64,000 bases of DNA from positions 960,001 to 1,024,000 of the forward strand of contig CAVQMM010000001.1 of assembly GCA_963713615.1 (NCBI GenBank). Direction: 5' to 3'. Made by a program: the position numbers and the translations under genes. The notes under the pieces are model-generated. The model did no database searches. It was given only the letters and a program-made list of their open reading frames with translations, and was not told the DNA's origin. Source of the stretch: an uncultured Chlamydiae bacterium. GTDB taxonomy: Bacteria > Chlamydiota > Chlamydiia > Chlamydiales > JAJFMA01. Shown here piece after piece: positions 32,870 through 34,292 of this stretch. How positions within the stretch are numbered: position 1 is the first letter of the stretch; every line of letters starts with the position of its first letter.

Positions 32870-32991
32870 GAAGGGTTTTTTGGCGAATTGAGACGATTGC
32901 AGAATTCGTTAGAGATGTCAGATGATGGACTAAAGGACGAAAAGGACATAAAAGACATAAAGGACTTGTAAAATACCCGCTCAGTCCTTTA

Positions 32992-33743
32992 GAGGCAATT
33001 GCAAAATTATTTGAGCCCTTGAGAATCGATTCTCGGGAAAAAAGGTTACCTTTTTTTATGAGAAGGCGATTCTAGAGAGCTTAAGTGGTATGGCACTATC
33101 CAGTCTGGAAAGACAGGCTTTTCTACCTTCCCAGGCCCGAAGGGTCGATATTGCAACAGGCCATGGCATAGCCATGGTATATGCCAGGAAGGGATTTCGC
33201 AGTCTGAAGGACTGCTACAAGACGCCAGTTTACAAACACCATTTATGCATGCGCTTTATGGCAGCCCTACAGGCTGCTAAAACCGTTTTGGCATATACCA
33301 TGGCTATGCCACATAGGCCTCAACCTAACAGGTCTTTTGAGCTTATATCTCAATGACTTAGGACTTCACAATCGTATCTCGGCGCGCAGCGCTTTGGAGT
33401 GCGGTCGCTTGCGACCGCTTTTCGTTCCTTGGGACGGCAATGCTAAACGGCATTGTATGGATTCGTCGAAGGCTGTATGTACTAACTATTTTACCCTTAG
33501 GGAATTATAGTGATGCCGTTGCACACGACCGTCGCAAGGAACCCAAAGCGGTCGCAAGCGACCGCACTCCAAAGCGCTGCGCGCCGAGATACGATTGTTA
33601 GGCTTAGGTTGAGGCCTATGTGGCTATGCCATGGCCTGTTGCAATATCGACCCTTCGGGCCTGGGAAGGGAATGACTCTCTCTTCACCGGCATCCGATTT
33701 TCAGGAAATTGACTTCGGAGAATCGGACTTCTGCAATTACCTC
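32992..33743. mobile_element. MITE W copy 2, 4-bp TSD TTTA, inserted in a GGAC/GTCC hairpin (32924-~33777)
   Basis: TTTA at 32988-32991 and 33744-33747; TIRs GAGGCAATTGCA / TGCAATTACCTC. Confidence 0.9.
33312..33620 (+). mobile_element. MITE X (309 bp), 11-bp TSD TGGCTATGCCA
   Basis: Direct repeats 33301-33311 and 33621-33631. Confidence 0.9.
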
Positions 33744-34292
33744 TTTATGTCCTTTTCGTCGCTTTGGTCCTTTTGTCGGCCTTATTCACCTTTGCGGTCA
33801 GTTTTCGGTCGACTGCAAAAGGATCGTCTGTCGCGTTTTGCTCCTCGGACATAGCTGGCGCTATGCCCTCGTCACAAACCACGACATCCGACCTTTTTCG
33901 TCCGACCGAAATTCTGACCGTAAAGGTGAACAAGGCCCTTTTGTCCATCCAAGAGCGACCGCACTTCCACGTCACTCAAAAGGTTGGCTGGCGAATTTCC
34001 TAAGATTCATACCTCACCTCATATAAATATTAAAATCAGCTATTATGTCATTGGCAATTATATACGCAAGCATTTGTATGACGCCTTCTGCTGAAAAAAC
34101 TCGAATTGCCTCCAAGACGAGATTTCTTAACTGTCGGCTCTCGCTGGCAGCCTTCCACAAGGGAAAACCATCTTTGATTAATTCTTCCTTAATGGAAAGT
34201 CTGTGCTCCGCGCTACAAGACCCCATTGCGATCATGATTACCCATGGAATTTGTAAATTTGCGTCAAGTGTAATAGATAGGAGAGAATAACA

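What the first reader, a model, noticed from the sequence alone, without database searches (positions are those of the whole stretch)
32924..33777. MITE W inserts four bases after GTCC inside 9-nt-period hairpin repeats
Seen: W (TIR GAGGTAATTGCA(G/A)AA; 431-432 bp once X and its TSD are subtracted) is flanked by GTCC-TTTA[W]TTTA-TGTCC here and GTCC-ATAT[W]ATAT-CGTCC at 55131-56215. A W-like left end follows GTCC-AATT at 61514. Removing W here restores a right arm complementary to the ggactaaaggacgaaaaggacataaaagac left arm. Copy 1 keeps only the right GTCC-type flank and shows no TSD. Inference: a second, different site-specific transposase with 4-bp duplication (IS5/IS1182-like behaviour) that targets the GTCC repeats.
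Basis: partly seen in the sequence, partly recalled or inferred. Interest (0 to 1): 0.7.

Follow-up and report, generated by a model that had tools for sequence, protein, structure and literature searches.

The report
Mini-transposon that targets 9-base repeats
This is a small, gene-less jumping element whose ends occur about 300 times in an environmental chlamydia genome, mostly at one short motif in a separate family of 9-base hairpin repeats and often with four duplicated bases, and it is likely moved by an IS1182-type transposase that this genome no longer encodes.

Summary
Observation confirmed; target rule refined. W (32992-33743; 432-bp core plus a 320-bp insert) is a MITE with 305 terminal-repeat matches in this chlamydial genome. 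A 4-bp duplication flanks 41 of 90 non-array copies (shuffle mean 5.2). The target is symmetric, GWC-N-[N4]-N-GWC: 191 of 254 distinct flanks have GWC at -8 (background 2.5%), only 67 read GTCC-N4, and 34 of 41 rebuilt empty sites have both halves. Long arrays are not preferred over isolated pairs, so a 12-bp motif explains the data. Metagenome contigs carry W's exact terminal repeat, at GTCC arrays, on IS1182/ISUnCu17-like DDE transposase elements, and W's left end resembles their right end. No such transposase was found in this assembly. Sister lineages use other motifs, or a 5-bp stagger. The 9-nt arms exist without W in two congeners and bracket four-helix-bundle (TIGR04258) genes; the scan noted that hairpin/four-helix link earlier on other DNA (e1-721887). 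Not shown: a complete cognate element, an empty allele at this locus, or activity. Verdict: new variant of repeat-targeting IS/MITE.

The parts
32992..33743 (.). MITE W, 752-bp form (432-bp core + 320-bp nested insert); 15-bp TIR GAGGTAATTGCA(G/A)AA; no ORF of 120 aa or more
32992..33061 (+). W 'L' end; beyond the TIR it resembles the right end (downstream of the transposase gene) of autonomous IS1182-like elements L270, L252, L406
   Evidence: 0 of 200 shuffles reach the score for these three ends
32988..32991 (.). left copy of 4-bp target duplication TTTA, preceded by GTCC (32984-32987)
33744..33747 (.). right copy of duplication TTTA, followed by T-GTCC (33748-33752)
32924..32969 (+). left arm of the host hairpin: tandem GGAC units, mostly 9-nt period
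33748..33777 (+). right arm of the host hairpin (GTCC units), interrupted by W after its first unit; the arm's last bases lie at 33938-33949, beyond a second insertion
33311..33621 (.). nested element X (311 bp) with 9-bp duplication 33302-33310 / 33622-33630; a different element, 67 near-full copies genome-wide
33778..33937 (.). second, unrelated 160-bp GGCC-ended element in the same right arm, 8-bp duplication (33770-33777 / 33938-33945)
   Evidence: read directly
32890..32926 (+). lone end of a sister MITE with variant TIR GAGACGATTGCAGAA (14 ends in the genome, 11 with GWC at -8; this one has GGC)
55135..56206 (.). W with two X inserts; ATAT duplication in a GTCC arm
12049..12799 (.). W copy 1; no duplication; degenerate GGAC-type left flank and GTCC arm on the right (hairpin-apex type)
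61514..61530 (+). lone W-type TIR after GTCC-AATT; interior of another subfamily, partner end absent
6175..6280 (.). empty GGAC/GTCC 9-nt hairpin (unoccupied target)
9764..9850 (.). empty GGAC/GTCC 9-nt hairpin (unoccupied target)

Best explanation
W is a gene-less MITE that sits at a symmetric GWC-N-[4 bp]-N-GWC site with a 4-bp duplication, and it was likely mobilised in trans by an IS1182 (ISUnCu17-like) DDE transposase that likely reads the two GWC triplets directly in duplex DNA. Shown: TIRs, copy number, duplication length, target motif, both orientations, and sharing of the TIR and subterminal sequence with transposase-bearing elements. Inferred: a transposase dimer binds the TIRs, each half contacts one GWC, the strands are joined 4 nt apart, and gap repair makes the duplication. 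Two neighbouring 9-nt GGAC/GTCC units supply this spacing, so the arms of the four-helix-bundle-associated hairpins are the main non-coding landing sites. Copies without a duplication, and the tandem arrays, most likely arose later, by recombination between two W copies in one hairpin or by adjacent deletion. The cognate transposase gene has probably been lost from this genome.
For: TSD 41 of 90 versus permutation mean 5.2. GWC at -8 in 191 of 254 distinct flanks; at -9 in 24, at -16 in 16, and in at most 5 at the other 11 offsets; genome background 0.025. Rebuilt sites: 34 of 41 have both GWC, 41 of 41 at least one. Orientation 15:10. Same TIR at GWC sites in G002 (26 of 30) and G251 (35 of 57). 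14 of 25 de-duplicated two-ended elements from other genomes and metagenomes have a 4-bp duplication (these loci were selected for GWC on one side). L252 and L270 carry the exact TIR downstream of a transposase gene, at GTCC arrays; L352 carries it upstream of one. The transposase has invariant D147, D269, E330 and a Y323-R326-E330-K337 signature in 64 aligned rows, Pfam DUF772 + DDE_Tnp_1 in close homologues, and 40% identity to plasmid proteins annotated IS1182/ISUnCu17. A related 1575-bp element in G105 has a TIR one base different and a 4-bp duplication in 10 of 12 copies, one 5-bp, one none. TSD-less W copies are enriched for GAC-type flanks on both sides, 16 of 48 versus 3 of 41.
Against: No cognate transposase in G000: PF05598 and PF13751 give nothing, tblastn best E about 1, custom HMM best E 3.4. 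No complete element with both exact W TIRs and both flanks was recovered; L252, L270 and L352 each hold one end. W's other end matches none of nine autonomous ends tested beyond the TIR. 49 of 90 non-array copies lack a 4-bp duplication and 63 of 254 flanks lack GWC. NCBIfam NF033551 is the best match but far below its cut-off (59-87 versus 270 bits). The same TIR sits at non-GWC sites in other genomes (G352 1 of 124, G030 0 of 15, G291 0 of 16), so the TIR alone does not identify the enzyme.
Confidence: 0.8

Rival explanations
1. Targeting depends on the hairpin's structure (cruciform or single strand), or on a protein bound to the 9-nt arms such as the four-helix-bundle protein, not on direct readout of 12 bp by the transposase.
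For: Nearly all ends are non-coding (14 of 305 flanks in ORFs of 200 aa or more, which cover 71% of C1), while over 1,100 AT-core GWC-N6-GWC sites lie in ORFs. TIGR04258 genes and the arms co-occur. IS1397-type REP targeting is a precedent for repeat-level choice (PMC1525189, passages).
Against: Among non-coding motif sites W shows no preference for longer arrays: 23 of 34 versus 428 of 654 available, odds ratio 1.1, p = 0.86. Insertions sit in arms at a fixed register, not at loops. G251 has GWC-targeted copies and no TIGR04258 hit (92% complete). Absence from genes is also what purifying selection gives.
Confidence: 0.12
2. W inserts with little specificity into AT-rich intergenic DNA; the association reflects survival in, or co-amplification with, the hairpins.
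For: Some copies share flanks (arrays, nested repeats). The related G105 element appears untargeted.
Against: The signal is at single-base register (GWC at -8 in 191 of 254 de-duplicated flanks, at -7 in 0, at -10 in 0) and on both sides of duplicated sites. Survival cannot fix a register.
Confidence: 0.04
3. The 9-nt arms are products or integral parts of W itself, for example built by repeated insertion and excision.
For: W's right TIR continues into GTCC, and lone TIRs run straight into GTCC arms in G002.
Against: G001 and G003 (98-99% complete) have 55 and 127 triple-GGAC matches but 0 exact W TIRs. Many hairpins in G000 are empty. The arms bracket four-helix-bundle genes.
Confidence: 0.04

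Closest known systems
IS1182 family, ISUnCu17-like elements (plasmid records KC964606, NZ_AP026405; ISPse1 as a trapped IS1182)
   Same: Single DUF772 + DDE transposase; short TIRs starting GAG with a TTGC core; 4-bp duplication (ISPse1: 16/16 IR, DR 4; PMC3281130 table passage).
   Different: W has no gene; the candidate enzymes are about 375 aa, 40% identical to ISUnCu17-like proteins and below the NF033551 cut-off; strong preference for GWC-N6-GWC, for which my searches showed no report.
REP-targeting insertion sequences: IS1397, ISKpn1, ISPsy8 (IS3), IS621, ISPa11, ISPpu9/10 (IS110), ISRm22 (IS4) (PMC1525189, passages)
   Same: Insertion at a fixed position in a dispersed palindromic repeat; ISRm22 also shows copies with mismatched duplications ascribed to recombination.
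   Different: Different transposase family; a 12-bp bipartite motif rather than nearly the whole REP; the target is a tandem 9-nt arm linked to four-helix-bundle genes, not a RAYT-associated REP.
Bacterial MITEs (for example MITEAba12; search listing only)
   Same: TIRs, duplication, no coding capacity, high copy number, borrowed transposase.
   Different: Base-level target selectivity, nested cargo (X, IS66 and other IS), and tandem arrays with hairpin spacers.
REP/BIME/REPIN with RAYT (PMC3733652, passages)
   Same: The target hairpins are dispersed, intergenic, palindromic, and flank a gene in their 'full' form.
   Different: The flanked gene is TIGR02436 + TIGR04258, not a Y1 transposase; none of the six Y1 loci in G000 has 9-nt arms.

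Membership tests
MITE (non-autonomous IS derivative) | Terminal inverted repeats | tested here: met
   15-bp TIR; 305 ends at up to 1 mismatch, 122 facing pairs
MITE (non-autonomous IS derivative) | Fixed-length target duplication | tested here: met
   4 bp in 41 of 90 non-array copies, permutation mean 5.2
MITE (non-autonomous IS derivative) | No transposase gene | tested here: met
   No ORF of 120 aa or more in the window copies; long copies hold nested IS, mainly IS66-like (family named from recalled gene layout, not scanned)
MITE (non-autonomous IS derivative) | Ends shared with an autonomous IS | tested here: met
   Exact TIR on L252, L270, L352; subterminal similarity for one end only
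IS1182 family (autonomous partner) | DDE triad with Y(2)R(3)E(6)K signature (signature recalled) | tested here: met
   D147, D269, E330 invariant; Y323 R326 E330 K337 at 97-100% in 64 rows
IS1182 family (autonomous partner) | DUF772 + DDE domain architecture | tested here: met
   PF05598 + PF01609 over cut-off in 3 of 3 homologues and precomputed for most of the 120 listed hits; P0001 itself lists PF01609 only
IS1182 family (autonomous partner) | Curated family model NF033551 over cut-off | tested here: not met
   Best NCBIfam hit but 51-87 bits versus 270; plasmid relatives at 36-40% identity are annotated IS1182
IS1182 family (autonomous partner) | 4-bp duplication by the autonomous element | tested here: inconclusive
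   4 bp in G105 (10 of 12), 5 bp in G281 (10 of 10); no complete element with exact W ends
IS1182 family (autonomous partner) | Transposase acts on W ends | not testable with these tools
   Needs a transposition assay
REP-targeting IS | Insertion at a fixed register in a dispersed palindromic repeat | tested here: met
REP/RAYT system (for the target hairpins) | Repeats flank a Y1 (RAYT) transposase gene | tested here: not met
   0 of 6 PF01797 loci have 9-nt arms; 2 of 2 four-helix-bundle genes do
IS110/bridge-RNA site-specific elements | No terminal TIRs or fixed DDE-type duplication; DEDD recombinase (recalled) | tested here: not met
   W has terminal TIRs, a 4-bp duplication and DDE partners

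The most novel reading that the evidence does not exclude
A clade of small IS1182-like transposases has repeatedly been retargeted to whichever dispersed repeat its host carries. W's lineage reads two successive 9-nt units of an enigmatic four-helix-bundle mobile element, a sister in G281 reads the same GTC half-sites 10 bp apart with a 5-bp stagger, and others use GCCC or CCCC. That would be layered parasitism on an undescribed mobile element, and a natural series for learning how a compact DDE transposase sets its target motif and cut spacing.
Probability: 0.4. Interest if true: 0.65.

Novelty: new variant of a known kind. Interest (0 to 1): 0.45.

Why it matters
IS elements that target repeats are known in the IS3, IS4 and IS110 families (PMC1525189). 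My searches of the held library showed no IS1182 case, though most subscription papers and ISfinder were not searchable. Here a short, sharply defined motif comes with hundreds of natural insertion ends, and close relatives differ in motif and stagger, so target choice by a ~375-aa DDE enzyme becomes directly testable. W also marks the 9-nt hairpins as a landing pad where several elements nest and recombine, which likely drives rearrangement in a large chlamydial genome. It does not reveal new chemistry.

Tried and rejected
3055-bp W copies as the autonomous form: rejected; they are W plus an unrelated multi-gene IS in varying position and orientation. Resident DDE_Tnp_1 elements of G000 (31 matches, 14 inspected): other termini. 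ISAzo13 (PF07592): none in G000, 1 of 36 genomes, other ends. Viral contigs: 20 TIR matches, none resembling an element end, many in-frame coding; no transposase relative. Plasmid blastn with the W end: chance hits only. Empty allele in related strains: four runs holding at most 0.20 of the flank words; joints skipping W are short, low-depth and resemble paralogous hairpins, so inconclusive. G001/G003 synteny at this locus was not examined. Search for a complete GWC-targeted autonomous element: none with exact W ends. G407 and G409 give the same counts as G244 and G122 and were treated as duplicates. Literature on four-helix-bundle genes with tandem repeats: nothing relevant in the listings. 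No structure prediction was run. Tree labels were assigned by eye from one to a few flanks per element; L258 is a long branch, and L380 and L381 are under half filled.

Full report
Host and locus. The window is G000:C1:960001-1024000 of a 3.97-Mb, 99% complete assembly. Relatives sharing the element are labelled Chlamydiae or Parachlamydiaceae in the genome collection. The locus lies between a TamB-domain gene ending at 32869 and a 2689-aa ORF starting at 34378.

Observation. W spans 32992-33743 between GTCC-TTTA and TTTA-T-GTCC. It equals a 432-bp genomic copy plus 320 bp, which is element X (311 bp) and its own 9-bp duplication. With W and one TTTA removed in silico, the arms fold at -25.6 kcal/mol, z -8.6. 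A further 160-bp element with an 8-bp duplication interrupts the same right arm.

Genome-wide test. The TIR occurs 305 times at up to one mismatch; 310 accepted ends give 122 facing pairs and 66 unpaired ends. After dropping tandem-array members and long pairs that are not one element, 41 of 90 have a 4-bp duplication, against 5.2 expected (maximum 15 in 10,000 permutations); lengths 3, 5 and 6 give 4, 4 and 0. In 254 distinct flanks (307 ends, 3 dropped as doubtful), G at -8 is 0.80 and C at -6 is 0.86; GWC starts at -8 in 191, at -9 in 24, at -16 in 16, and in at most 5 elsewhere; background is 0.025. Classes: GGAC-N5 96, GTCC-N4 67, other GWC 28, none 63. Of 41 rebuilt empty sites, 34 are GWC-N6-GWC and all have at least one half; the central four bases are A/T-rich. 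Among non-coding motif sites there is no added preference for long arrays (23 of 34 versus 428 of 654, p = 0.86), so a 12-bp motif explains the data. Only 14 of 305 flanks lie in long ORFs; selection or preference could cause that.

Copies without duplication. These are enriched for GAC-type flanks on both sides (16 of 48 versus 3 of 41): W sits where the hairpin loop was, as in window copy 1. Four tandem arrays alternate W with a 22- or 43-bp spacer of arm sequence, and one array junction is also in contigs of an independent run (X2). Recombination between two W copies in one hairpin explains both (inference); the same reasoning was used for ISRm22 (PMC1525189, passages).

The transposase. 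None was found in G000. A DUF772 search of 35 TIR-bearing relatives gave 6 positive genomes; G105 holds 12 copies of a 1575-bp element whose TIR differs from W's by one base, with a 4-bp duplication in 10 and no GWC target. Its protein hit four of the 120 metagenome loci fetched for TIR + GWC: L252 and L270 have the exact W TIR downstream of the gene at GTCC arrays, L352 upstream of it, and L258 is a distant case. Beyond the TIR, W's L end aligns with the right ends of L270, L252 and L406 (0 of 200 shuffles each); W's other end matches none of nine ends. The family is large (5078 proteins at E <= 1e-30 among 7998 scored), has invariant D147/D269/E330 and a YREK signature, and its plasmid relatives are annotated IS1182/ISUnCu17 at 40% identity, though NF033551 stays under cut-off. 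A trapped IS1182, ISPse1, made a 4-bp duplication (PMC3281130, table passage).

Target diversity. The same TIR lies at GWC in G000 (190 of 243), G002 (26 of 30), G251 (35 of 57), G244 (4 of 7) and G122 (5 of 11), but hardly in G352 (1 of 124), G304 (1 of 25), G291 (0 of 16), G030 (0 of 15), G123 (1 of 13) or G105 (0 of 12); the latter have no triple-GGAC matches. In G281, 10 of 10 complete 1462-bp elements (52% identical protein) sit in GTCC-N5-GGAC with a 5-bp duplication, the same half-site at the same distance from the cut. L252, L270, the G281 element and GCCC- or CCCC-flanked elements form one clade (100/100), apart from the untargeted G105 type (24 rows, labels by eye). Kin are not independent, so no test across genomes is claimed.

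What the target is. C1 has 224 clusters of 9-nt arms, 36 of them inside long ORFs, many as empty hairpins. Both four-helix-bundle genes of G000 (TIGR02436 + TIGR04258, over cut-off) are bracketed by these arms; none of six Y1 transposase loci is. TIGR04258 passes cut-off in 11 of 39 genomes, all among the 14 with 8 or more triple-GGAC matches, and in none of the other 25. 14 of 16 aligned loci have exact 9-nt pairs next to the gene (18 of 19 loci examined, 2 unaligned; 2 of the 14 are G000's own). G001 and G003 have arms but no exact W TIR, so the arms do not depend on W. I reached this link; an unchecked note of this scan on another genome (e1-721887) says the same. How the four-helix element moves is not shown here.

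Mechanism and status. Shown: structure, copy number, duplication, motif, shared ends. Inferred: cognate enzyme, direct readout, recombinational origin of mismatched copies, loss of the autonomous copy. Untested: activity, an empty allele (inconclusive).

Literature seen: passages of PMC1525189, PMC3281130, PMC3733652 and bioRxiv 10.1101/2024.06.02.596822; listings only; no supplements. None of these showed an IS1182 element targeting such repeats; ISfinder and closed journals were not searchable. Verdict: a real, well-supported new variant of repeat-targeting IS/MITE; interest 0.45.

Noticed in passing
G000:C1:1850780-1851364 (L414) and C1:3217619-3218185 (L415): Two four-helix-bundle genes (TIGR02436 + TIGR04258) closely bracketed by GGAC and GTCC 9-nt arms; candidate autonomous form of the empty hairpins, mechanism unknown.
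   Followed up: partly
G000:C1 476526-478848, 1173286-1175179, 2273505-2280484, 2600817-2603043: Head-to-tail arrays of about 5-9 W copies separated by identical 43- or 22-bp hairpin-arm spacers; the arrays at 1173 kb and 2273 kb share the same left flank and spacer.
   Followed up: partly
window 33311-33621: Element X: 311 bp, 9-bp duplication, 67 near-full copies, the common flank classes all at one of two symmetric sites of W's inner palindrome; its transposase was not sought.
   Followed up: partly
window 33778-33937: 160-bp GGCC-ended element with 8-bp duplication in the same hairpin arm; the same sequence also occurs inside some W copies (for example C1:74164, 277748).
   Followed up: no
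G281:C1 (L368, L384, L389, L392, L404, L407, L409-L412): Ten complete copies of a 1462-bp IS1182-like element, all in a GTCC-N5-GGAC site of one repeat family with a 5-bp duplication; the best candidate for an assay.
   Followed up: partly
G002 loci L032-L038, L040: Lone 15-19-bp TIRs running directly into GTCC arms, as if W was deleted between the GTCC that follows its TIR and a flanking GTCC.
   Followed up: no
G000:C1 598665, 867073, 1312531, 1956780, 2131917, 2215848 and others: An IS66-like element repeatedly inserted inside W at different positions and orientations; other IS also nest in W.
   Followed up: partly
window 55027-55108 and 56247-56345; 61396-61490: Another palindromic 9-nt-type repeat (ACCACAGAG units) surrounds W copy 3 and the 61514 end.
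   Followed up: no
L425 (G154:C137): A TIGR04258 gene followed by GTCC units with 10-nt rather than 9-nt period.
   Followed up: no
window 34378-42447 and 42816-50225: Two very long ORFs (2689 and 2469 aa); the first has no Pfam match, the second was not scanned.
   Followed up: no
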